A DNA stretch of 20,000 nt, from IMG/VR virus record IMGVR_UViG_3300024319_000010. The stretch is one strand, 5' to 3'. A program made the translations under genes and the position numbers. Positions within the stretch are counted from its first letter, which is position 1. Each line of letters begins with the position of its first letter. This document shows, one piece after another, positions 2,375 through 19,639 of this stretch. The stretch is from an uncultured virus (IMG/VR IMGVR_UViG_3300024319_000010) (lineage: Duplodnaviria; Heunggongvirae; Uroviricota; Caudoviricetes; Crassvirales). The notes beneath the pieces were generated by a model. The model made no database searches. It had not been told where the DNA came from and saw only the letters and a program-made list of their open reading frames with translations.

Positions 2375-4222
2375 ATGAATTATTTGATAAGTAACAACCC
2401 TGAGCAGAAAGTATATGATGGTTTAATATTAACCACTCTTGAAGAAATAATTCCACATCTCAAAGCACAGATAATTGTTGGTTTCGACACAGAGACAACA
2501 GGGTTAAGATTTGACAGTGAAGAGTTGTTACTTGTTCAAATATCATCGAAGGAACACAACTATCTTATAGATGCACAATCAGTTGACTTACAGCCTATTA
2601 AAGGGCTGTTTGAATCAACACGTATAATTAAGATAGCGCACAATGTTAAGTTTGACTACAAGTTTCTAAAGTTCAACGGTATTACATGTGAGAATACATA
2701 TGATACTATGCTTGCGGAACAAGTATTAAACTGTGGCAAGACAAGCTTGCGTAATTCATTGAAAGATCTGCTTGAAAGATACTTAGATATATTTATAGAT
2801 AAGAAAACAAGATCATCGTTCATAGGACACAAAGGTACGTTTAGTAAAGCGCAGTTGTTCTATGGTATTGATGACACGTCTAATCTAATCAAGCTTAGAG
2901 AACTACAACTAGAGAGCATCAAAGATTTACAGCTTGAAGAGGTAGTTCAATTGGAGAATGATGCAGCATTAGCATTTGCTGACATAGAATACAACGGTAT
3001 TTATCTTGACAAAGACAAGTGGGAAGAGAATTATAACACTGTTAAAATAGATCTTGACAATGCAATAGAAGAATTAGATATGTTTATTGAACATGATCCT
3101 ACTTTTAAAAAGCATAAGCTACCTTTTTTACAGATGGATATGTTTAAGCCTATTGAGGAGATACGTAAAACAGATATACTATGGTCTTCACCAGCACAAG
3201 TACTTGATTTATTTCGAACTGTATCACCTCTATTAGAGAGTGTTAACGGTAAGTTACTGTTAATGCACACTGAAGATCATCCTATTATAAGTAAGTACAT
3301 TAAATATAAAGAAAAAGCAAAACTTTACAACGCCTATGGTCCTGATTTCTATAAGTATCTACATAACGATGGATGTGTCCACACAAACTTCAAACAAATA
3401 CTTAATACGGGTCGAGTTAGTTCGTCTAAACCTAACATGCAACAGATACCTGCCTCCAACTCGTATAGAAATGCCTTTACTCCTGGACACAAAAGCTGGG
3501 TGTTTGTATCATCCGATTTTTCTTCGCAAGAACTATGTATTATTGCCTACGGATCACAGGATCCAGTATGGCTTGATGCACTTAAAGAAGGGAAAGACTT
3601 GCATTCCATATGTGCTGACTTAATATTTGGTCAAGTATGGCGTGATGCAGAAGGAGATGATAAAGAACGTAAACGTCTACGTACTGCTGTAAAAGCAATT
3701 AACTTCGGTCTTGCCTATGGTATGTCAGAGTTTAAACTTGCCGATACATTGCAGATTACAGTGGAAGAAGCTAAAGAGATGATAGACAAGTATTTTACTG
3801 TGTTTCCATCTATTAAAAAGTTTCTTACACAGCTGGGTAACTTCGGTAAAGACAATGGTTACATCAGAACGTTTAAACCTTATCGCAGGATAAGATGGTT
3901 CGAAGAATGGGAGAACAACAAAAGAGATTTTGCTATTCTTGGTTCTATTGAACGTGCTTCCAAGAACACACCAATACAAGGTACAGGTGCAGATATGACT
4001 AAGCTAGCTCTTATAAAAGTAAGAGAGGTAATAGCTCTTAACAACTATCCTGTAAGACTTGTAATGACTGTTCACGATCAGATAGACACAGTATCTCACG
4101 AAGGATTTGCTGAAGAATGGTCTGGTATTTTAAAGAATACAATGGAAGAAGCAGCTTTACACATTATAGACAACGGTCTATTAAAAAGCGATACTAACAT
4201 CTCACTAGCGTGGGAAAAATAA
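2375..4222 (+). CDS. polA: DNA polymerase family A (3'-5' exonuclease plus polymerase, no 5'-3' nuclease domain)
   Basis: ExoI FDTETTG, ExoII AHNVKFD, ExoIII YGIDD; TGRVSSSKPNMQQIP; motif A DFSSQEL; motif B RTAVKAINFGLAYG; NTPIQGTGAD; motif C VHDQ. Confidence 0.97.
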   Translation: MNYLISNNPEQKVYDGLILTTLEEIIPHLKAQIIVGFDTETTGLRFDSEELLLVQISSKEHNYLIDAQSVDLQPIKGLFESTRIIKIAHNVKFDYKFLKFNGITCENTYDTMLAEQVLNCGKTSLRNSLKDLLERYLDIFIDKKTRSSFIGHKGTFSKAQLFYGIDDTSNLIKLRELQLESIKDLQLEEVVQLENDAALAFADIEYNGIYLDKDKWEENYNTVKIDLDNAIEELDMFIEHDPTFKKHKLPFLQMDMFKPIEEIRKTDILWSSPAQVLDLFRTVSPLLESVNGKLLLMHTEDHPIISKYIKYKEKAKLYNAYGPDFYKYLHNDGCVHTNFKQILNTGRVSSSKPNMQQIPASNSYRNAFTPGHKSWVFVSSDFSSQELCIIAYGSQDPVWLDALKEGKDLHSICADLIFGQVWRDAEGDDKERKRLRTAVKAINFGLAYGMSEFKLADTLQITVEEAKEMIDKYFTVFPSIKKFLTQLGNFGKDNGYIRTFKPYRRIRWFEEWENNKRDFAILGSIERASKNTPIQGTGADMTKLALIKVREVIALNNYPVRLVMTVHDQIDTVSHEGFAEEWSGILKNTMEEAALHIIDNGLLKSDTNISLAWEK

Positions 4223-4244
4223 TAACACTTTAAAACAATAAACA

Positions 4245-4844
4245 ATGGGATTTGATATTTACGGAATTAAACCACACAACCCTCAACATTTAGTTAAACC
4301 AGAGCTTGATTTCTCTAAAGACGTTACAGAAGAGCAAAAGGAAGAGTATTTTAATAGAATGGAACACTACGAAAGAAATGTACCAGGACATTACTTTAGA
4401 AATAACGTGTGGTGGTGGAGACCTTTATGGACTTATGTATGTACTTACACAGATGTTCTTACATCAGAGCAACAATATGAAGGAGGCAGTAACAGTGGTG
4501 CTGAAGTCAATGACGAACAATCTATTGAATTAGCAACTCAATTACACAAGCTTATAGACTCTGGACATACTGCAGAACATGAACAAGCACATATGAAAGA
4601 GTATGAGTTAGCTCAAATACGTAACAATGAACTTGAAGAAGCACGTAAAATACTACATGAAGTAGTTGTTGCAGAGACAGGGGATGATTCTATTGTACCT
4701 GCTAACTATCCAGAAAGTTTTAAAGAAGACTGGGATAGTTTGTGGGAACAGAAACAATGGGCAGGTAGCTACCCTTTTAGCACCGATAATATTAAAGAAT
4801 TCGCTAACTTCTGTTATGGATCAGGCGGCTTTCAAATTTGGTAA
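4245..4844 (+). CDS. Phage hypothetical protein, 199 aa
   Basis: Long ORF with aromatic motifs MGFDIYG, YFRNNVWWWRPLW and EFANFCYGSGGFQIW; function not recognised. Confidence 0.8.
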   Translation: MGFDIYGIKPHNPQHLVKPELDFSKDVTEEQKEEYFNRMEHYERNVPGHYFRNNVWWWRPLWTYVCTYTDVLTSEQQYEGGSNSGAEVNDEQSIELATQLHKLIDSGHTAEHEQAHMKEYELAQIRNNELEEARKILHEVVVAETGDDSIVPANYPESFKEDWDSLWEQKQWAGSYPFSTDNIKEFANFCYGSGGFQIW

Positions 4845-4847
4845 ACT

Positions 4848-5567
4848 ATGAATGGATTTAAAACAACAAGAAATGCAGTACTAGCACAGCCGGTACCGCA
4901 AGCTACTAATACTTATGGACCTGTAGCACATGAAACATTATTTGAACGTGTAGAATCTGAGATAGCACGTAACAACTGGGAGGTAGATGATATAAGTTAT
5001 AGAGGTGCAATGAATAACGATGTTGTTATTGCATATTATACTCTAGCAACTAAATCTAACTTACCTGTAAAGCCTATGATAGGTATTATAAATTCATACA
5101 ACAAGACACGACGTGTAGGAATTGCATGTGGTGCAAGAGTAATGATTTGTATGAATGGTATGATATCAGGAGAAGCTACAGCAGCTAAAGTACATCGTTC
5201 TAAAGTAATGGACCACTTAGATCAAATGATACATGTTACTCTAGGGTCATTAAGAAAGACCTTTGGAGAGATTAACAAAGATATAAATGATTTTAAAGAG
5301 CATAGATTAGATGGAATGACAGAAGTATCACACATGCTAGGTGAGCTTTACGTACGTGATAGTATACTAACACCTACACAAGCATCAGTAGTTAAGAGTG
5401 AGATTACTGATTCTGTACATTTTTCTATGAAAGAAGACACCGAGTCTTTTAACTCTTGGAACCTGTATAATAATGTAACCGAGGCTTTAAAACGTTCACA
5501 TCCGCTGAATGAGTTTAAAGACTATCACAAGGTGCATGATTATTTCAAAAACTATATAACTATATGA
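4848..5567 (+). CDS. DUF932/DUF945-like protein, 239 aa
   Basis: INSYNKT...GARVMICMNGM...H and WNLYNNVT match the NS(H/Y)-x-C-x-NG and W-x-x-(Y/F)N patterns as I recall them for this family. Confidence 0.7.
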   Translation: MNGFKTTRNAVLAQPVPQATNTYGPVAHETLFERVESEIARNNWEVDDISYRGAMNNDVVIAYYTLATKSNLPVKPMIGIINSYNKTRRVGIACGARVMICMNGMISGEATAAKVHRSKVMDHLDQMIHVTLGSLRKTFGEINKDINDFKEHRLDGMTEVSHMLGELYVRDSILTPTQASVVKSEITDSVHFSMKEDTESFNSWNLYNNVTEALKRSHPLNEFKDYHKVHDYFKNYITI

Positions 5568-12131: not shown

Positions 12132-14414
12132 ATGAAAATAGTAAGCAATGCAGACATACAGCATGTAGGTACTATATCAGAATCAATAGATTTTGGTATA
12201 GATAGTAGTAATATTGGTATATTGTTTAGAGGTTTCTCTGATACTTTATATTCCAATAAAATAGGATCTATAGTTAGAGAAGTAACTTCTAACTGTTTTG
12301 ATTCTCACAGAGAAGCTAACATCAAAGACGATGTAGTAATATTATTATCAAAAGCGGACCCTCTTACAGGTAAATCAGGTAAAATCTGTTTTAAAGATGT
12401 AGGTGTAGGATTAAGTCCTGATAGAATCAAAAACATTTATTCAAAGTATTTCTCTTCTACAAAAAGAGGATCTAACAATGAGATAGGTGGTTTTGGTATA
12501 GGTGCAAAGAGTCCTTTGGCTTATACAGACGCTTTTGAGGTAAAAACTATATACGATGGAATAGAATACCATTATATAGTACATAGAGGTGAACAAGTTC
12601 CTAGAATAGAGTTGTTGACTAGCAGTGTAACTGATACTAGAAATGGTACTGAAGTTATACTACCGGTTAGAACAGGAGACGAAGACAAGTTTATTACAGA
12701 GTGTAAAAGACAGCTACGTTTCTTTGATAACATCTCTTATAGAGGTATGGGTATAAACAACAACTACAAAGTAATGTCTGGTAAAAGCTGGATAGCAACT
12801 GGTAGTACTGGATATACAGATTTTAAGATCTCTATATGTTTAGGAGGTGTAAGTTATCCTCTTGACGCAGATCAAGTAGGTCTTGGTAGATACGGTGCTG
12901 ATGAAGATTATTTAGATACATACTCACAGACTACTGTAGCTTTGAAGTTTGATGTAGGTGATATAGACGTTACTATGTCTAGAGAATCTATAGAATACAA
13001 CGATAGAACTATAGCCGCTATTAAAACAAAGTATAGAGAAGCTAAAGAAGAGCTAAGAGAGCTTTATTATAAATCTTGGAAAGAAGAGACAGACTTTAAA
13101 CGTTACATAGATCTATGTGAAGAAAGCAGAGGAGTTCCTAAAATACCGGTTACAAAAGAAGAAAGTATTAGTATAGACTTTTGTATAGCTGGTTCAGATA
13201 GACCAGAGTTTGCTCCGTGGGGTATGTCAGTTAATCCTTCAGACATTGATTTTATATTTAAAGGATATGCTGTTACTGATGGTAAACGTAATACTAAAAA
13301 GTACAGTAATACTGCATCTCATTATTTTTCTAGAAAAGCTATTACAAACTTTTATAGAAAGAGAGGTAAGTTAAGCAGTATTAAGAGTGAGTACATAGAG
13401 TCACTGGTAGGGTCAAATACTTTTATTTGTCTAGAATTACAAGAAGATGAGACTTGGAAGAACAGTATGCAACAAAGTAAAGTAACAATGTTAGAAAAGC
13501 TGAAGCCTTTGCTGTTAAGATATATTATAGACAATACAAAAAGCTATGATAATCTTGTTGTTCCAGATACTTTTAAACCTTCTGTAAAAGCAATAGCTAA
13601 AGCTAAACCTCCTAGAGATTTAGTATGTGCTAGACAACTAAAGTGGTATAATGACTATGACAGGAAGTTTGAGTACGTTAGATTTTATAAAACAGAAGCA
13701 TACTACAAAGATTTAACTAAACTAGTTAACCAAGGTGTTAGTATTGTTTATGCTTCTTCAGAAGAAGAGGAGCAGCTTAAACGACTAGGTCTTGTTTTAT
13801 ACAACAGTAAGTATAACTCAGGTAAAAATAGGTTAGGTAGAGCTGTTTATGGACCTCTTTACAATGATTCTAGAATACAAGTGCATAAAATTGCTAAGTC
13901 TCACTTGAAGTGGTACAAGCAAATAGGTGCTCTTACTATTAAAGAATTTTTAGTAAAGAACTATAACTATCTTATGTGTACTAAAAACATAGAGTATTTA
14001 CACGGTCTTGTTAATAAGCATCCTGTTTTATTAGGAGAAGCATCTAATGTATCTCCTATTCCTAGAAAGTATCGTACTGATTTTGCAACCATTATTACGG
14101 ATGTAGCTACACAAAATAGAACTGATCAACGTGTAGAAAACGTAACTAAGCTGTTTAATCATTACAACATAGCCATGACTGACACTAATGCTACGGCATA
14201 TGGTAAACAGGGTGGTTATTATATGGATGGGCTTTTAGATTTTCTTAAAGATCAAGCTAACAAACTAGTGTTTTTAGAAAAGTATTTCTTAACTATAAAT
14301 ACTACCAGAGATGACAAAGCTGAGAATATTATTAAAAACATTATTCCACAGTTTTATACAAAAAACAATTTTAAAATTAAAAACTATTTCAATGAATCAA
14401 GTATTTGCAATTAG
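12132..14414 (+). CDS. rIIA: rIIA-like protein (N-terminal GHKL ATPase), 760 aa
   Basis: LYSNK..IVREVTSNCFDSH (ExxxNxxD), DVGVGLS (DxGxG), STK...IGGFGIGAKSPLAYTD, NGTEV, SRESIEY; followed directly by an rIIB-like gene. Confidence 0.88.
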   Translation: MKIVSNADIQHVGTISESIDFGIDSSNIGILFRGFSDTLYSNKIGSIVREVTSNCFDSHREANIKDDVVILLSKADPLTGKSGKICFKDVGVGLSPDRIKNIYSKYFSSTKRGSNNEIGGFGIGAKSPLAYTDAFEVKTIYDGIEYHYIVHRGEQVPRIELLTSSVTDTRNGTEVILPVRTGDEDKFITECKRQLRFFDNISYRGMGINNNYKVMSGKSWIATGSTGYTDFKISICLGGVSYPLDADQVGLGRYGADEDYLDTYSQTTVALKFDVGDIDVTMSRESIEYNDRTIAAIKTKYREAKEELRELYYKSWKEETDFKRYIDLCEESRGVPKIPVTKEESISIDFCIAGSDRPEFAPWGMSVNPSDIDFIFKGYAVTDGKRNTKKYSNTASHYFSRKAITNFYRKRGKLSSIKSEYIESLVGSNTFICLELQEDETWKNSMQQSKVTMLEKLKPLLLRYIIDNTKSYDNLVVPDTFKPSVKAIAKAKPPRDLVCARQLKWYNDYDRKFEYVRFYKTEAYYKDLTKLVNQGVSIVYASSEEEEQLKRLGLVLYNSKYNSGKNRLGRAVYGPLYNDSRIQVHKIAKSHLKWYKQIGALTIKEFLVKNYNYLMCTKNIEYLHGLVNKHPVLLGEASNVSPIPRKYRTDFATIITDVATQNRTDQRVENVTKLFNHYNIAMTDTNATAYGKQGGYYMDGLLDFLKDQANKLVFLEKYFLTINTTRDDKAENIIKNIIPQFYTKNNFKIKNYFNESSICN

Positions 14415-15528
14415 AAGTAACAAAGACGTTACAGCGTTAGTTAATGGTAGCAGTTTTTATAAAACAGCTAGCACAAAAGAAGAAGCACAAACCCTATACG
14501 AACAGGTTAAAACAGTTGCTCTAAATCCTAAAGATAATTTAGTTAGAGAGTTGATTGAGAAATTTGACCCGGTGTCTAGAGTTTATAATAACCAAGATCT
14601 TGTAAAAGACAGTCTTGGTAACTGGTATTTAAAGGGGTTCAGCGAGCCCCTACCTACCAAGCTTCTTACTAAGATGAAATCATTCTTAGACGAAGGACAT
14701 CCTATAACACCACTAGTAAATTTCTGGAAGTTATTAATGTTGAATCCTGCAGAACATGTAAAACGTGATTTGTATTCTTTTATGGATCAATACGAATTCC
14801 CTATTACAGACTCAGGATATTTTGTAGCATATAAATCTGTTAAAAAGACAGACAAGACCTACAAAGCAGTAAACATGTGGGTGCCTAAAGAGTACATACA
14901 GATGAAAGCTTCGGGAGAAGATCCTAAAGACTACACAGTTATGGACATTGATGGTAAATTCTCTATTGTTAAAACAGAAGTTGTAGCAGATAGCAATGGT
15001 AATTTTATAGCTCCTCAGCACGTTGCTGGTAATCTAGATGAAATGTTTAATAGCATGAATGATCTAGGAGGTGATGTAGATGCTCCAGAGTTTACTGACT
15101 GGCATGGTGGTAGTACACAAATTCGTTTGGGTTCTCCTGTATCTATGCCTAGAAGCTCTTGTGATAGTAATCCTAACAATACATGTTCTAGTGGTTTGCA
15201 CGTAGGTGCCCCAGGATATGTAAAAGGATTTGGTGGTAGTGGTGGAGACACTGTTTTCTTAGCAACGTTAGTTAACCCAATGAACATTGTTGCTGTACCA
15301 TCAGACTATTCTTATATGAAAATGAGATGTTGTGAGTACTATGCATATGGTATTGTAGATCTAGCTAATGATATGACAATTACAACTCCTTATTTTGAGC
15401 ACGACTATAAAACTTGGGAATCTGAGTCTTTAGAAGAGCAATTAGCTGAAATAGGACAGTATAGCACTTCTGCTCAATTGGCAGAAAAAGCTAATATCGT
15501 ACAAGAGAGACTTGTAATGGTAGCATAA
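14392..15528 (+). CDS. rIIB: rIIB-like protein, about 378 aa
   Basis: PLVNFWKLLMLNP, PITDSGYFVAYKSV, MPRSSCDSNPNNTCSSGLHVG, VNPMNIVAVPSDY, KMRCCEY. Start set at in-frame ATG 14392 rather than 14311 (smaller overlap, A-rich leader). Confidence 0.88.
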   Translation: MNQVFAIRSNKDVTALVNGSSFYKTASTKEEAQTLYEQVKTVALNPKDNLVRELIEKFDPVSRVYNNQDLVKDSLGNWYLKGFSEPLPTKLLTKMKSFLDEGHPITPLVNFWKLLMLNPAEHVKRDLYSFMDQYEFPITDSGYFVAYKSVKKTDKTYKAVNMWVPKEYIQMKASGEDPKDYTVMDIDGKFSIVKTEVVADSNGNFIAPQHVAGNLDEMFNSMNDLGGDVDAPEFTDWHGGSTQIRLGSPVSMPRSSCDSNPNNTCSSGLHVGAPGYVKGFGGSGGDTVFLATLVNPMNIVAVPSDYSYMKMRCCEYYAYGIVDLANDMTITTPYFEHDYKTWESESLEEQLAEIGQYSTSAQLAEKANIVQERLVMVA

Positions 15529-15536
15529 CTTAAAAT

Positions 15537-15594
15537 AGAGGGGTCAAGCGTAGTGATACGTGCAGGGTTACCGAGTCCCAACCCCTCTCTTTTT
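15537..15594 (+). other. Structured intergenic element (branched hairpin with T tail)
   Basis: Outer stem AGAGGGGT/ACCCCTCT encloses GCGTA-GTGA-TACGT and GGGTT-ACCG-AGTCC hairpins; followed by CTTTTT. Confidence 0.6.
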
Positions 15595-15606
15595 AAAACT
15601 TAAAAT

Positions 15607-15816
15607 ATGACAATAAAACAAGAGCATATAAGACTTATATGCAAAGCATTGAATAGAACAGAAGGACACAAAGAAGAAGCATCAAAACTTTTAGGAATTA
15701 CAGCTAGAACTTTATACAGGTATTTGGGAGATTATTCAATAATAAAAGTTAAAGGAAAATATATAGAAAATGATAAAATATCAGAAAACAAAAACCCTAG
15801 TAACAAAACCGAATAA
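15607..15816 (+). CDS. Stand-alone Fis-type (HTH_8) DNA-binding protein, 69 aa
   Basis: ICKALNRTEGHKEEASKLLGITARTLYRYL matches the Fis/NtrC AL...G....A..LGI...TL.R pattern. Confidence 0.85.
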   Translation: MTIKQEHIRLICKALNRTEGHKEEASKLLGITARTLYRYLGDYSIIKVKGKYIENDKISENKNPSNKTE

Positions 15817-16612
15817 TAACAGTGCTAATTGCATTGCACCAAACCTCATCTATGGTTGTTTTGGTGGTTGTGTTAACACTTATTGTTATATGTCACGTTA
15901 CAATGGGACCAGAGTATATGTTAATGAGAACGTTGATGAAATATTTAACTCTGTAGTAGAGTGGGAAAAGACCTATGACAAGGTACCTGATCAACAAGAC
16001 CCTGTATACACAATGGTAGACATTGCGTGTAATACAGATTTAGTACTTATGCAGAAACATGTAAAGAAAACAGGAGTTTCTTTACACGATTACTTGCTTA
16101 TGTATGATAAACACGAAAATCTTAACACAACAATGGCTACAAAGTATCCAGGACTACTAACGTTAGACGTAAATTCTTTCAAAAAACGCCCTCGTATACG
16201 TGTTTCTCTTATGCCACAGGTATATTCTACCGTCGTAGAGCCTAAAATGCAGGATATTTACTCTCGTATTGAAGATATTAATAGATTGAAAGACTTAGGA
16301 TGGGAAGTACATATAAATTACTCTCCTCTTATATTTCACCACCACTGGGATGAGCTTTATGAAGAATTATTTCAAGAAGTATCCGCAGTTGCTGGTGTTA
16401 ACAAATGTGAAGTAATAGTTTTAACTAACCATGTAAATCAAATGGCTAAAGCATCACCAGAAGCAAGACACCTAATGCAATATAGCAACGAGGTAAAGAA
16501 CAAAAGTGGTGTAATGCGTTACCCTTTGAAACATAAAAGCAGATTATTAACAGAATGGACAGAACTATACAGTAAGTATTTTCCTGTAGAAACCATTAGA
16601 TATATATTTTAA
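15770..16612 (+). CDS. Spore photoproduct lyase-like radical SAM protein, 280 aa
   Basis: GCFGGCVNTYCYM cysteine triad; DIACNTDL, ATKYP, RIRVSLMP, RIEDINRL..LGW.V....SPLI and C-terminal MRYP...YFP...IRYIF are colinear with SplB-family motifs as recalled. Confidence 0.8.
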   Translation: MIKYQKTKTLVTKPNNNSANCIAPNLIYGCFGGCVNTYCYMSRYNGTRVYVNENVDEIFNSVVEWEKTYDKVPDQQDPVYTMVDIACNTDLVLMQKHVKKTGVSLHDYLLMYDKHENLNTTMATKYPGLLTLDVNSFKKRPRIRVSLMPQVYSTVVEPKMQDIYSRIEDINRLKDLGWEVHINYSPLIFHHHWDELYEELFQEVSAVAGVNKCEVIVLTNHVNQMAKASPEARHLMQYSNEVKNKSGVMRYPLKHKSRLLTEWTELYSKYFPVETIRYIF

Positions 16613-16613
16613 T

Positions 16614-16739
16614 ATGGACCCAGTAGATTACGGAAACCCCGCATATGATAACGACGAATACGAATGCACGCACTGTGAAAAACCTATGTCAAGACCAGGT
16701 TATTGTAGCAATGCATGTTTCGATGCAGATATGTTATAA
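16614..16739 (+). CDS. Small C4 zinc-finger protein, 41 aa (not in ORF track)
   Basis: Hand translation MDPVDYGNPAYDNDEYECTHCEKPMSRPGYCSNACFDADML; CxxC...YCSxxC; starts 1 nt after the previous stop. Confidence 0.75.
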   Translation: MDPVDYGNPAYDNDEYECTHCEKPMSRPGYCSNACFDADML

Positions 16740-16753
16740 AACATTTAAAAGAA

Positions 16754-16768
16754 TCTTGTATATTGCAT
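16754..16768 (+). promoter_or_regulatory. Putative Bacteroidota-type -7 promoter box
   Basis: TCTTG-TATATTGC-A (16759-16766) resembles TAnnTTTG, is intergenic and lies about 35 nt upstream of ATG 16801. Confidence 0.45.
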
Positions 16769-16800: not shown

Positions 16801-17706
16801 ATGGATTATTATCAAAGTACAAAAATCAGTAATTCTTCTTTAAGTTATATAAATCCGGAACAAGGAGGATCACCAAGAAAGTTTAAAGATTATATAGATG
16901 GAAATTCTAATAATATTAGCAGTCCCTCTCTATATGCCGGTACAACTATACACCAATATTTTTTAGAACCAGAGACTTTTATAGTATCTGATGTAGATAG
17001 ACCTAGTGATACTATTGTGAAAATAATAGACAAGGTTTATCAAGTTACTAGAGGCGAACTAGATACCGATATTAACTCACATCAGGATTACATTTTAGGA
17101 TCTGCTAAAGAATTTGCGTATGGTCAATCATGGAAACCCGAAACATTGCTTAAAAAAATCATCGATCAAGGTAAAGAGTATTATAACTTTTTACATAGAG
17201 CGGATGGCAAGACTTGTATAGACCAAAAAATGGCAGCTATGTTAGCTAACATAAAAGAGTCTGTTAACAATAATGCAGGCGTTAAAAAACTGTTGTTTGA
17301 CACACCAGGAGTTAACGAAGAGGATGTATATTGGGGTCCAGATGAAATATATAAATCTAAAATAGATAGATATACTTCTAATGCTCTCATAGATTTAAAA
17401 ACAACATCAAAACCACTAGCCTCCTTTAGAAGCTCTTTTGATTTCTATCACTACGATAGACAGCTAGCATTTTATAAAGATGCTTTAGAGTGGATAGGAA
17501 AGCCTGTAGAGCGATGTTATATTATAGCTATAGAGACAACCGGTTATAACCAAGTGCGAATCTTCGAAGTTGGTGAGAAATTGATTGAACAAGGTAGAGA
17601 AAAATATAAAAATCTACTTAACAGAATAAAGTATCATCAACAAACACAACAGTGGATAGAACCACAAGAAGTGTATGAAAACAATGGTATAACTTTATTT
17701 AACTAA
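16801..17706 (+). CDS. PD-(D/E)XK exonuclease (RecE/exonuclease VIII, DUF3799-like), 301 aa
   Basis: ISNSSL, GTTIH...LEP, E, KSKID, LIDLKTT, YHYDRQLAFY. Confidence 0.88.
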   Translation: MDYYQSTKISNSSLSYINPEQGGSPRKFKDYIDGNSNNISSPSLYAGTTIHQYFLEPETFIVSDVDRPSDTIVKIIDKVYQVTRGELDTDINSHQDYILGSAKEFAYGQSWKPETLLKKIIDQGKEYYNFLHRADGKTCIDQKMAAMLANIKESVNNNAGVKKLLFDTPGVNEEDVYWGPDEIYKSKIDRYTSNALIDLKTTSKPLASFRSSFDFYHYDRQLAFYKDALEWIGKPVERCYIIAIETTGYNQVRIFEVGEKLIEQGREKYKNLLNRIKYHQQTQQWIEPQEVYENNGITLFN

Positions 17707-17962: not shown

Positions 17963-18098
17963 AACAATAATGAAGCAAATTGCTTTTTTAAAACGAGTAA
18001 CTAGCGCAGATACAAAACGTAGTATTCAAAAACTACAACAAAAATTAGATGTTTTAATAAAAAATAAAAATGCAAGAGATACAGATAAATCCGCTTAG
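17949..18098 (+). CDS. Small basic helical protein, about 49 aa
   Basis: In-frame ATG at 17949 (MEKIKTIMKQ...) within track ORF 17898..18098; fills the gap between neighbours. Confidence 0.55.
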   Translation: MEKIKTIMKQIAFLKRVTSADTKRSIQKLQQKLDVLIKNKNARDTDKSA

Positions 18099-18555
18099 AC
18101 CTGAGATAGGTCATATTAGCTTAGAAGAAATAGAAAATGTAGTACGGGAGATAGGACTTATAGACATACGTATTGTTTCAAGAAAAAGAAATTATGTATT
18201 ACACAGAGGCATCTTTTTTATGATAGCAGTAGCATATACAAAGTACTCCTTATCACACATTGGTGACTTTTTAGAAAAGGATCATGCAACAGTAATACAT
18301 GCAAACAAAACAACTCCTTGGACACTAGGTCAAGATAGAGATGCAAAAAACATGTTTAATGCTATCCATACTAGAATAAAGCATAAAATTCATCTAAGAC
18401 TAAAAGAACATGAGTTTGTTAGAGACAATAGAATAGAAACTCCAACAGACTATACGAATGTATACGACCGTGTTGATCTACTTTTAATAGAAATAGAACA
18501 ATTAAAAACACAATTAGCAAAAGATATAACAGTAACATATGATACAGCAGAATGA
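18070..18555 (+). CDS. Stand-alone DnaA C-terminal (domain IV) HTH protein, 161 aa
   Basis: SRKRNYVLHR.IF.....YTKYSLSHIGDFLEKDHATVIHA matches the DnaA signature SLxxIGxxF..RDHTTVxHA; no AAA+ domain. Confidence 0.8.
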   Translation: MQEIQINPLRPEIGHISLEEIENVVREIGLIDIRIVSRKRNYVLHRGIFFMIAVAYTKYSLSHIGDFLEKDHATVIHANKTTPWTLGQDRDAKNMFNAIHTRIKHKIHLRLKEHEFVRDNRIETPTDYTNVYDRVDLLLIEIEQLKTQLAKDITVTYDTAE

Positions 18556-19639
18556 TATATTAGAAATAGTAGATAAATTTAATAACAAACTTCTTATAAA
18601 TAAGACTAGTCCATACACAATAAAGTTACACCAGAGTAACGAAAACAGACTCAGGGACTTAGGATTTTTAGTGCAAGTAACTCCTGAAAAGGTAGTATAC
18701 AAAAAGCATGAAAGAGAAGCAGACATTTATAGAAAAACAAAAGCTTGGAGTGTTCATGCAAGAATTCTTGACTTTGCAAATGAGATAGAATATGAAACTT
18801 CTGATGCGGTGTACAAGATTAGTACACAAGAGGCAAGAATAAAATGTGGAAAGATGGTATACAAGAATGCAAGCTATACCCAAAAGATCTATATCCCAAT
18901 AAAGTATTGGACTGTAGAATATAAAAATCCAGCTAACCAAAAATTATATGAGTATTTAGGGTATGAATGGTATAGTGAACTTAGAGATCTTTTTGATAAA
19001 GACTATATGAAAAGTATAGGTCAATCAGTTAGTAAACTAAGAGCTACTAATATTGTATATCCTGCAAAAGATGAGGTGTTTAATGCTTTTAAGTATTGCA
19101 GCTTCTTAGATACTAATGTAGTTATTATAGGACAAGACCCGTACCATGACGGCAGTGCTCACGGTTTGGCTTTTTCAGTACGAGAAGGTCAGACTAAAGT
19201 ACCTCCTAGTTTACGTAACATACTTAAAGAAGTTCAGGATGATTACTATTCCGGTAACTTTGCTTTTAAAAGCGCGCATAGTCCAACACTAACACGTTGG
19301 GCGTCGCAAGGAGTATTAATGATAAACAAAACTTTAACAGTTAATAAGAGTCAAGCTAACTCTCATTCTAATCTAGGATGGAATAAGTTTACTCAGGAAG
19401 TTATAGACAAGCTTATAGCTTCTAAAACAGCCTCAAAAAAACCACTTGTATTTGTATTGTGGGGTAAAGAGTCACAGAAATTAGCACCAGAAGAGTCTGA
19501 ATACATTAAAGTAATCAAAGCTCCTCACCCTGCAGCAGAAGTATATGCTGGAGGTAAAGCAGGTTTCTTTGGATCTAAGCCTTTTACAAAATGCAACGAA
19601 TTCTTAGAAGAGTTTAAACTTCAAGGAATTATATGGTAA
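18539..19639 (+). CDS. ung: Family 1 uracil-DNA glycosylase with a ~135-aa N-terminal extension
   Basis: VVIIGQDPYH, AHGLAFSV, PPSLRNI, WASQGVLMIN, SH..LGW, VFVLWG, PHPAA. Confidence 0.93.
   Translation: MIQQNDILEIVDKFNNKLLINKTSPYTIKLHQSNENRLRDLGFLVQVTPEKVVYKKHEREADIYRKTKAWSVHARILDFANEIEYETSDAVYKISTQEARIKCGKMVYKNASYTQKIYIPIKYWTVEYKNPANQKLYEYLGYEWYSELRDLFDKDYMKSIGQSVSKLRATNIVYPAKDEVFNAFKYCSFLDTNVVIIGQDPYHDGSAHGLAFSVREGQTKVPPSLRNILKEVQDDYYSGNFAFKSAHSPTLTRWASQGVLMINKTLTVNKSQANSHSNLGWNKFTQEVIDKLIASKTASKKPLVFVLWGKESQKLAPEESEYIKVIKAPHPAAEVYAGGKAGFFGSKPFTKCNEFLEEFKLQGIIW

What the first reader, a model, noticed from the sequence alone, without database searches (positions are those of the whole stretch)
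15537..16739. Candidate phage UV-repair or DNA-modification cassette: structured leader + Fis-type HTH + SPL-like radical SAM enzyme + zinc finger
Seen: three coupled ORFs (47-nt overlap, then a 1-nt gap), bounded by a structured element upstream and a promoter-like box downstream. Established: Bacillus SplB repairs 5-thyminyl-5,6-dihydrothymine, a lesion of UV-irradiated dehydrated or A-like DNA, and is co-transcribed with a small regulator gene (splA). Inference: a phage of a non-sporulating host may use this enzyme to repair spore photoproduct formed in densely packed virion DNA under sunlight, or may have repurposed it for base chemistry. The HTH and zinc finger could be regulator and accessory subunits.
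Basis: partly seen in the sequence, partly recalled or inferred. Interest (0 to 1): 0.8.

Follow-up and report, generated by a model that had tools for sequence, protein, structure and literature searches.

The report
Short phage photoproduct-lyase, no fixed cassette
An uncultured seawater phage carries a shortened, well-conserved relative of the iron-sulfur enzyme that splits a UV-made thymine cross-link in bacterial spores, but the small neighbouring genes and the RNA hairpin proposed as its partners do not travel with it.

Summary
The three ORFs, the 47-nt overlap and the 1-nt gap are as described. ORF 15770-16612 is a true member of the spore photoproduct lyase (SPL) fold. Pfam SPL scores above its cut-off, solved SPL structures are the only strong match (Z 26.3 against 14.0 for the next family), and most SPL catalytic and base-binding residues are kept.

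It differs from SplB in three ways: it lacks the first ~61 residues, its cluster motif is CX3CX4C, and the phosphate and hairpin-tip residues differ.

The cassette idea fails:
- SPL homologues sit in at least 17 other phage contexts without the HTH or zinc-finger genes.
- In the same rIIB-exonuclease slot, relatives carry SPL alone, HTH without SPL, or nothing.
- The "leader" is a separate, covarying about 55-nt element at the rIIB 3' end. It also occurs in SPL-free contexts and matches no Rfam family.

Best reading: light-independent repair of an SP-type thymine dimer in phage DNA. This is untested.

This scan has already noted the same enzyme family on other DNA. I found no paper on it.

The parts
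15770..16612 (+). Short-form SPL-family radical SAM enzyme (280 aa). Cluster motif C30-x3-C34-x4-C39. Y38, Y40 and C87 correspond to SPL Y96, Y98 and C140.
   Evidence: PF20903 56.9 bits against cut-off 27. TIGR03886 131 bits against 437 and TIGR04070 53 against 400. A profile of A2 against PDB gives 4fhc at 4.9e-38. AF2 model pLDDT 96.3. VIA Z 26.3, rmsd 2.4 A, 264-265 residues aligned, model 1-280 on SPL 62-341. dN/dS 0.08-0.14.
15607..15816 (+). Small Fis-type HTH protein (69 aa). Its low-complexity tail overlaps the SPL start by 47 nt.
   Evidence: PF02954 3.4e-9. Homologues lie upstream of SPL in L001, L002, L015 and L014 only, and occur without SPL in L026 and L027. dN/dS 0.28 against L001.
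16614..16739 (+). 41-aa Cys4 mini-protein (C-x2-C-x11-C-x3-C), a possible zinc ribbon of unknown role.
   Evidence: phrog_27963 5.5e-6. zf-HIT is below its cut-off. Present only in the window, its near-identical record G001, L001 and L002. No tblastn hit in 50,697 phage records. dN/dS 0.10.
15537..15591 (+). Conserved three-helix intergenic element. P1 is AGAGGGGT/ACCCCTCT, P2 is variable and P3 is GGG/CCC around an invariant core. In this lineage a T-run follows it.
   Evidence: 94.5% of cells pair, 5 pairs change on both sides, and 0 of 500 shuffles reach the covariation score. There is no Rfam match and no tRNA. RNA-library contigs over rIIB stop at 15522, 15547 and 15579 (weak hint).
16759..16768 (+).
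   Evidence: The same box precedes the exonuclease start in L030, L031, L032, L033 and L036. It is not enriched in the window. No sigma-70 match here.
14311..15528 (+). rIIB-like gene, the left border of the variable slot.
   Evidence: phrog_609 and other RIIB families, 1.3e-37. Synteny series.
16801..17706 (+). PD-(D/E)XK exonuclease (RecE/exonuclease VIII-like), the right border of the variable slot.
   Evidence: PF12684 6.3e-15. phrog_412 7.7e-33. It directly follows rIIB in L031, L032, L033 and L036.

Best explanation
ORF 15770-16612 encodes a functional, compact SPL-family radical SAM enzyme. It sits as an optional gene in the replication and repair module of an uncultured seawater phage.

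Proposed mechanism (inferred, not shown): a [4Fe-4S] cluster held by C30, C34 and C39 cleaves SAM. The 5'-deoxyadenosyl radical abstracts H from C6 of a flipped-out 5-thyminyl-5,6-dihydrothymine-type dimer. The methylene bridge breaks, and C87 returns an H atom, with Y40 and Y38 relaying the radical, as in SplB. This would give the phage light-independent direct reversal of a thymine cross-link in its own DNA after injection.

The HTH and Cys4 genes are independent small phage genes that happen to flank it in this lineage. The upstream hairpin is a separate conserved RNA element at the rIIB 3' end that probably also terminates rIIB transcription here.
For: Family and fold:
- PF20903 scores above its cut-off.
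- All 5 PDB sequences matched by the family profile are SPL, the best at 4.9e-38.
- The top 6 Foldseek hits are all SPL (TM 0.78-0.80), and the next is NifB at 0.45.
- VIA gives Z 26.3 against 14.0 for RlmN.

Residue mapping, using the alignment and the residue roles stated in PMC3467042 (passages and section 14 read):
- C90/C94/C97 map to C30/C34/C39.
- Y96/Y98 map to Y38/Y40.
- C140 maps to C87.
- K174/S195 (SAM binding) map to K125/S146.
- R193/E268/Y339 (dihydrothymine binding) map to R144/E214/Y278.
- The S76-S79 loop maps to N15-S18.

Conservation: in 118 close homologues (of 120 listed; the 2 that were 240 aa long were dropped) these residues are invariant, except C87, which is C in 114 and S in 4. 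dN/dS is 0.08-0.14.

Abundance: 1725 proteins in 90%-identity clusters at E<=1e-5.

Context: DNA polymerase A, helicases, an exonuclease and a true family-1 UNG (TIGR00628, 212.8 bits against cut-off 185.75).

Cellular relatives: they are frequent in non-spore-forming bacteria. Among the 80 best loci kept, many are titled Spirosoma, Pontibacter, Rufibacter, Adhaeribacter and Mucilaginibacter.

Cluster spacing: CX3CX4C and CX3CX2C forms interleave on the tree, which suggests the two spacings are interchangeable (quick tree only).
Against: No activity was tested.

Differences from SplB:
- The cluster spacing is non-canonical.
- R273 and K309, which bind the intra-lesion phosphate, align to T219 and V248. 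The hairpin-tip pair R304/Y305 aligns to about K243/N244. DNA docking, and possibly the lesion, may therefore differ.
- It scores far below both NCBIfam equivalog cut-offs.

Other points against:
- Whether spore photoproduct forms in virion DNA is not known to me. My literature searches found nothing on it.
- The donor Cys is not conserved in the wider family (A2).
- Archaeal SplB-like proteins are also of unknown substrate (PMC4929162, passages read).
Confidence: 0.6

Rival explanations
1. The enzyme repairs a different intrastrand or interstrand DNA cross-link or dihydropyrimidine lesion, not canonical spore photoproduct, using the same radical chemistry.
For: The phosphate-binding and hairpin-tip residues of SPL are replaced, and most of the N-terminal domain is missing. 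The protein scores closer to TIGR03886 (131 bits), the non-spore-former branch of unknown substrate, than to SplB TIGR04070 (53 bits). PMC4929162 raises the same idea for archaeal SplB-like proteins.
Against: All three side chains that hydrogen-bond the 5'-dihydrothymine (R193, E268, Y339), the loop holding the 3'-thymine, and the Cys/Tyr relay are retained and invariant in 118 homologues.
Confidence: 0.2
2. It is a DNA-modification enzyme like Pseudomonas phage M6 gp53, an SPL-fold radical SAM isomerase in thymidine hypermodification.
For: M6 gp53 shows that an SPL-like fold can be recruited for base modification in phage DNA (PMC8989533, passages read).
Against: - No thymidylate-synthase-like hydroxymethylase (PF00303) in 0 of 5 related phage records, 3 of them at least 90% complete.
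- No Tet/JBP match in 0 of 5, but that control rang nowhere, so it is uninformative.
- No second radical SAM gene (PF04055) in 0 of 5.
- The gene is optional among close relatives and has no fixed partner genes.
- The phage encodes a genuine UNG.
- The SP-binding residues are kept.
- The kinase and aGPT-Pplase genes of the M6 pathway were not searched for.
Confidence: 0.1
3. HTH, SPL and the Cys4 protein form one regulated functional unit (regulator, enzyme and accessory subunit) controlled by the upstream structured leader.
For: The genes are tightly packed, with a 47-nt overlap and a 1-nt gap. This arrangement is conserved in 3 closely related contigs. All three genes are under purifying selection. 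The element lies upstream of HTH or SPL in every member of this lineage that has either gene.
Against: - SPL occurs without both partners in L030 (same slot) and in 16 other loci.
- HTH occurs without SPL in L026 and L027.
- L015/L029 have an extra ORF between the element and HTH.
- The element occurs in 7 loci of two other contexts without SPL nearby, and in 0 of 17 other SPL loci.
Confidence: 0.07

Closest known systems
Spore photoproduct lyase SplB (Geobacillus thermodenitrificans SPL, PDB 4FHC/4FHD/4FHF; TIGR04070; Pfam PF20903)
   Same: Partial TIM-barrel radical SAM fold with a C-terminal beta-hairpin (Z 26.3). Three cluster cysteines. Equivalents of Y96, Y98, C140, K174, S195, R193, E268 and Y339, and the 3'-thymine loop.
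   Different: 280 aa against 340 aa, with no residues 1-61. CX3CX4C instead of CX3CX2C. R273, K309, R304 and Y305 are not conserved. About 20% identity. 53 bits against the 400-bit equivalog cut-off. A phage gene in seawater, with no splA-type partner.
TIGR03886 'spore photoproduct lyase family protein' of non-spore-forming bacteria (function untested as far as I know; recalled)
   Same: Best NCBIfam match (131 bits, profile positions 62-346). The same C-terminal RYIF end. Cellular relatives found at 29-38% identity in Cytophagales, Sphingobacteriales and others.
   Different: Below the 437-bit cut-off. Those proteins are mostly 343-390 aa with the N-terminal domain and a canonical CX3CX2C motif.
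Short CX3CX4C bacterial homologues (contigs titled Neolewinella, Odyssella, Legionella sp., Cesiribacter, Rickettsiaceae/Paracaedibacteraceae MAGs)
   Same: About 291 aa, the same short form and the same CxGGCxxSYC spacing (10 loci, L059-L068).
   Different: 35-38% identity. They are chromosomal stand-alone genes with unrelated neighbours.
Pseudomonas phage M6 gp53 radical SAM isomerase (PMC8989533)
   Same: A phage-encoded SPL-fold radical SAM enzyme acting on thymine derivatives in DNA.
   Different: It has a canonical motif and lies in a hypermodification gene cluster. No such cluster genes were found here. No sequence hit between the two was obtained.

Membership tests
Spore photoproduct lyase (SplB) | Three cysteines ligating the radical SAM [4Fe-4S] cluster | tested here: met
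   C30, C34 and C39 are the only invariant columns in 54 sequences. They are invariant in 118 of 118 close homologues.
Spore photoproduct lyase (SplB) | Canonical CX3CX2C spacing | tested here: not met
   The motif CFGGCVNTYC is CX3CX4C. All 118 close homologues have it, as do 14 of 61 motif-bearing full-length sequences (60 representatives plus the query).
Spore photoproduct lyase (SplB) | SPL fold: partial (alpha/beta)6 barrel plus C-terminal helices and a beta-hairpin | tested here: met
   Z 26.3, rmsd 2.4 A, 264-265 residues aligned. The next family scores Z 14.0. Foldseek TM 0.79.
Spore photoproduct lyase (SplB) | N-terminal alpha/beta domain (four-stranded sheet, three helices) | tested here: not met
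   The model aligns to SPL 62-341 only, and the ORF cannot extend upstream. Only the last strand(s) and the S76-S79 loop equivalent (N15-S18) remain.
Spore photoproduct lyase (SplB) | H-atom donor Cys140 and the Tyr96/Tyr98 relay | tested here: met
   C87, Y38 and Y40 by profile alignment. C87 is C in 114 and S in 4 of 118. The two Tyr are present in 118 of 118.
Spore photoproduct lyase (SplB) | Dihydrothymine-binding Arg193, Glu268 and Tyr339 | tested here: met
   R144, E214 and Y278, each invariant in 118 of 118.
Spore photoproduct lyase (SplB) | Phosphate-binding Arg273/Lys309 and hairpin tip Arg304/Tyr305 | tested here: not met
   They align to T219, V248 and about K243/N244. This rests on sequence-profile alignment only.
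Spore photoproduct lyase (SplB) | Curated score cut-offs | tested here: inconclusive
   Pfam PF20903 is passed (56.9 against 27). The NCBIfam equivalog TIGR04070 is failed (53.2 against 400).
Spore photoproduct lyase (SplB) | Cleaves 5R-spore photoproduct to two thymines with SAM | not testable with these tools
   This needs anaerobic biochemistry.
TIGR03886 SPL-family protein | Score above the equivalog cut-off | tested here: not met
   131.3 bits against 437.55.
splAB-type operon | SplA-family regulator gene upstream of the lyase | tested here: not met
   The upstream ORF is HTH_8. The 11 Pfam families listed at E<=1 include no SplA family. It accompanies SPL in 4 of 18 loci.
M6 gp53-type thymidine hypermodification pathway | Co-occurring dUMP hydroxymethylase (thymidylate-synthase fold) | tested here: not met
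   PF00303 matches 0 of 5 related phage records, while the control rang in 10 of 14 genomes. The window itself has none.
M6 gp53-type thymidine hypermodification pathway | 5-HMUDK kinase and aGPT-Pplase genes | not tested
   No search was made with these families.
Intrinsic terminator (for element 15537-15591) | GC-rich stem directly followed by a U-run, with transcripts ending there | tested here: inconclusive
   An 8-bp GC-rich closing stem plus T5 is read. The scan tool lists none because the 'loop' is 37 nt and branched. RNA-library contigs stop at 15522-15579 in 3 runs (contigs only, no DNA run laid). Relatives without the insert have plain UUCG-loop terminators at the same place. Other copies of the element lack a T-run.

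The most novel reading that the evidence does not exclude
Spore photoproduct, or a close analogue, would be a significant sunlight lesion in the tightly packed, poorly hydrated DNA of ocean phage particles. Abundant marine phages would counter it with a minimal, light-independent radical SAM lyase. Its CX3CX4C motif would be a naturally interchangeable alternative to the canonical CX3CX2C cluster site. This would extend SP repair from spores to virions and define a smallest working SPL core.
Probability: 0.3. Interest if true: 0.8.

Novelty: new variant of a known kind. Interest (0 to 1): 0.55.

Why it matters
SPL is the textbook example of radical-SAM DNA repair and is considered specific to endospores. 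A strongly conserved, abundant short form in seawater phages matters for three reasons. It suggests that the lesion, or a relative of it, arises outside spores. It offers a smaller enzyme for mechanistic work. It also shows that the radical SAM cysteine spacing can gain or lose two residues among close relatives. The negative result matters too: the enzyme works without dedicated regulator or accessory genes, so the gene alone can be tested.

Tried and rejected
Searches that found nothing:
- tblastn of the SPL protein and of the Cys4 protein against 50,697 phage records: no match.
- No whole genome is held for the window. The nearest record, G001, is a 30-kb fragment.
- No photolyase (PF00875) in 5 related records.
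- Rfam: no family at the element, either in the window region or in 5 loci. ARAGORN: no tRNA.
- Exact 18-mer of the element in 185,579 species genomes: 0 matches.
- A looser gapped pattern gave 100 stretches in viral contigs. 0 of the 73 new loci scored with model R1 matched, so these were chance hits. L044 and L050, GC-rich coding matches to the 18-mer, were also dropped from the element alignment.

Uninformative results:
- Bacterial neighbourhoods of 15 homologues: 44 of 80 neighbouring ORFs were scanned and show no recurrent partner.
- The atlas search with the Cys4 protein gave only unnamed clusters and a sub-threshold NinF lead at 0.87.
- The search for related loci with HTH found only 3 loci.
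- In the RNA-library contigs, the parts without cover (15580-16278 and others) are not evidence of silence.

A reading considered and rejected: a +1 frameshift fusing HTH to SPL. It is rejected because SPL begins at its own conserved MIK(Y/T)QKTK start where no HTH is present (L030).

Not done:
- No complex prediction of SPL with the Cys4 protein was run, because I do not claim that they bind.
- The careful tree did not finish. Only the quick tree is reported.
Full report
**Observation.** The three ORFs exist exactly as described.
- HTH is 15607-15816, the SPL-like ORF is 15770-16612 and a 41-aa Cys4 ORF is 16614-16739.
- The overlap is 47 nt and the gap is 1 nt.
- The window is the replication and repair module of a phage. 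It holds family-A DNA polymerase, SF2 and DnaB-like helicases, AAA_24, a primase-like protein, rIIA, rIIB, a PD-(D/E)XK exonuclease, a DnaA-C-domain protein and a family-1 uracil-DNA glycosylase.
- The polymerase is only 27-30% identical to anything in 50,697 phage records. Many of the 15 listed hits are crAss-like phages, and the top-ranked hit is a Leptolyngbya phage.
- The stretch is held by seawater metagenomes. 15 runs hold at least half of its sampled words, and 4 of them may be its source.

**The enzyme: family and fold.**
- Pfam SPL (PF20903) is passed, at 56.9 bits against a cut-off of 27.
- NCBIfam places the protein nearer the non-spore-former branch TIGR03886 (131 bits) than SplB TIGR04070 (53 bits). 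Both scores are far below the equivalog cut-offs.
- phmmer against PDB finds only SPL (2.4e-7). A profile of 54 family members raises this to 4.9e-38 over SPL residues 62-339.
- An AlphaFold model built on that alignment has pLDDT 96.3 and pTM 0.93.
- Foldseek ranks six SPL entries first (E about 1e-14, TM 0.78-0.80), followed by NifB at TM 0.45.
- VIA-align gives Z 26.3, rmsd 2.4 A over 264-265 residues, with model 1-280 on SPL 62-341. The next hit is RlmN at Z 14.0.

**The enzyme: residues.** Residue roles are taken from Benjdia et al. 2012 (PMC3467042; passages and section 14 read). The mapping uses the alignment.

| SPL residue(s) | Role | Here |
|---|---|---|
| C90/C94/C97 | cluster ligands | C30/C34/C39 |
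| Y96/Y98 | radical relay | Y38/Y40 |
| C140 | H-atom donor | C87 |
| K174/S195 | SAM binding | K125/S146 |
| R193/E268/Y339 | dihydrothymine binding | R144/E214/Y278 |
| S76-S79 loop | 3'-thymine binding | N15-S18 |
| R273 | intra-lesion phosphate | T219 (not kept) |
| K309 | intra-lesion phosphate | V248 (not kept) |
| R304/Y305 | hairpin tip | about K243/N244 (not kept) |

- Among 118 close homologues (2 of the 120 listed were dropped as 240-aa fragments) all the retained residues are invariant. The exception is C87, which is C in 114 and S in 4.
[quoted passage not shown] No upstream in-frame sequence could supply them.
- The cluster motif is CFGGCVNTYC, a two-residue insertion relative to SPL's CMGHCHYC.

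**Distribution.**
- 1725 proteins in 90%-identity clusters match at E<=1e-5. The 120 listed are 73-100% identical, carry PF20903, and a few are named 'spore photoproduct lyase' by JGI.
- At 50% clustering there are 154 representatives at E<=1e-3.
- Of the 69 full-length sequences examined (68 representatives plus the query), 14 are short with CX3CX4C, 33 are short with CX3CX2C, 14 are long with CX3CX2C and 8 have no motif.
- On a quick maximum-likelihood tree the two spacings interleave. The tree needs 9 changes, of which at least 3 are forced by well-supported branches. The careful search did not finish.
Among the 80 best loci:
  - L056 and L057 are phage-like (70-72% identity, 277 aa);
  - L059-L068 are short CX3CX4C forms of about 291 aa, on contigs titled Neolewinella, Odyssella, a Legionella sp., Cesiribacter and others;
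  - most of the rest are 343-390-aa canonical forms in Cytophagales and Sphingobacteriales (Spirosoma, Pontibacter, Rufibacter, Adhaeribacter, Mucilaginibacter), myxobacteria and others.
- The neighbours of these bacterial genes show no recurrent partner.
- The phage gene is under purifying selection, with dN/dS 0.08-0.14.

**The cassette hypothesis.**
- Twenty viral loci encode SPL homologues at 66-95% identity.
- HTH lies upstream in 4 of the 18 loci that have enough upstream sequence (L001, L002, L015, L014).
- The Cys4 ORF lies downstream in 2 of the 19 with downstream sequence (L001, L002).
- Elsewhere the neighbours are DNA polymerases, a helicase, UNG and unrelated small ORFs.
- A survey anchored on rIIB gives a natural series in one synteny frame, rIIA-rIIB-[slot]-exonuclease. 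Ten loci extend past rIIB:

| Slot content | Loci | Count |
|---|---|---|
| element + HTH + SPL (+ Cys4) | L025, L028, L029 | 3 |
| element + SPL alone | L030 | 1 |
| element + HTH, then unrelated small ORFs, no SPL in the 2.1 kb (L026) or 0.6 kb (L027) that follow | L026, L027 | 2 |
| empty, with a plain UUCG-loop terminator | L031, L032, L033, L036 | 4 |

  Supporting calls for the table: 64, 65, 66.
- SPL, HTH and the Cys4 ORF are therefore separable, and SPL is an optional gene.

**The 'structured leader'.**
- The hairpin starts 9 nt after the rIIB stop.
- In L015/L029 an extra ORF lies between it and HTH.
- Its invariant core (GGTCAAGC ... GTGCAGGGTTACCGAGTCCCAAC) also occurs in seven loci of two other contexts:
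  - after a small acidic-tailed protein gene in L043, L046, L048, L053 and L054;
  - between a 291-aa gene of unassigned function and a 343-aa ORF in L045 and L052 (neither was scanned).
- None of these seven has SPL within 1.5 kb.
- Across 8 distinct versions the closing helix covaries (GAGGGG/CCCCTC against GTGGAGG/CCTCCAC and others), and the middle hairpin varies in length.
- Counts: 94.5% of cells pair, 5 pairs change on both sides, 0 of 500 shuffles reach the covariation score, and slid controls give 34-70% pairing. With only 8 related sequences this is moderate support.
- A covariance model finds it in 0 of 17 other SPL loci and in 0 of 73 loci from a looser pattern.
- There is no Rfam family, no tRNA and no exact copy in 185,579 species genomes.
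- In this lineage a T-run follows the element. Contigs from three RNA libraries covering rIIB stop at 15522, 15547 and 15579 and none bridges into HTH. This is a weak hint of a 3' end. These are contigs, not reads, and I laid no DNA run or silent control.
- Other copies lack the T-run, so termination is not the element's conserved role.

**Hypermodification rival.**
- M6 gp53 shows that an SPL-like fold can isomerise a thymine adduct (PMC8989533, passages read).
- Related phage records, three of them 94-99% complete, have no thymidylate-synthase-like gene and no further radical SAM gene.
- The Tet/JBP search was uninformative because its control did not ring.
- The kinase and pyrophosphorylase genes of that pathway were not searched for.

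**Literature.**
- Six full-text searches found no paper on phage SPL homologues or on SP in virions.
- They found SplB-like genes discussed in SOS-linked operons (PMC3765255) and in archaea (PMC4929162), with the substrate unknown in archaea.
- The library lacks most subscription journals.

**Earlier notes of this scan.** Five notes on other DNA describe the same short CX3CX4C phage SPL. I reached the same reading independently, as stated, and re-tested it here.

**Verdict.** This is a real, conserved, compact SPL-family enzyme. It is most likely a light-independent thymine-dimer lyase serving the phage (confidence 0.6). It is not part of a dedicated HTH, leader and zinc-finger cassette.

Noticed in passing
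window 15537-15591; L046:1468-1530; L045:1489-1551 (-); L026:5218-5296; L030:5153-5237: A conserved three-helix intergenic element of about 55-85 nt with an invariant core. Its closing stem covaries and its middle hairpin varies. It is found after genes in at least three different marine phage contexts and matches no Rfam family. It may be a new small structured RNA (3'-end, processing or protein-binding element) or a border of mobile gene slots.
   Followed up: yes
window 18539-19639: Family-1 uracil-DNA glycosylase (TIGR00628, 212.8 bits, above cut-off) with an unassigned N-terminal extension of about 140 aa. A 231-aa version without the extension lies directly upstream of SPL in L007 and L008.
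   Followed up: partly
L086:2539-3618 (-) and 3812-4855 (+): A contig titled Rufibacter sediminis carries two divergently oriented SPL-family paralogues side by side. One is a full-length match to Pfam SPL (309 bits) and the other is of the 347-aa TIGR03886-like type.
   Followed up: no
L060:2246-3442: In the Odyssella contig, a SAM synthetase gene lies on the same strand about 540 nt upstream of the short CX3CX4C SPL homologue.
   Followed up: no
window 18070-18555: A 161-aa protein consisting essentially of a DnaA C-terminal DNA-binding domain (PF08299, 1.7e-10). It is conserved in the rIIB-exonuclease synteny of relatives.
   Followed up: no
L015:4586-4837 (= L029): One close relative has an extra small hydrophobic ORF inserted between the structured element and the HTH gene. 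This shows the slot accepts further insertions.
   Followed up: partly
window 14311-14414: The listed rIIB ORF overlaps rIIA by 104 nt. The relative L026 starts rIIB at the internal Met (MNQVFAIRS...), so the true start in the window is probably 14392, giving an overlap of 23 nt.
   Followed up: no
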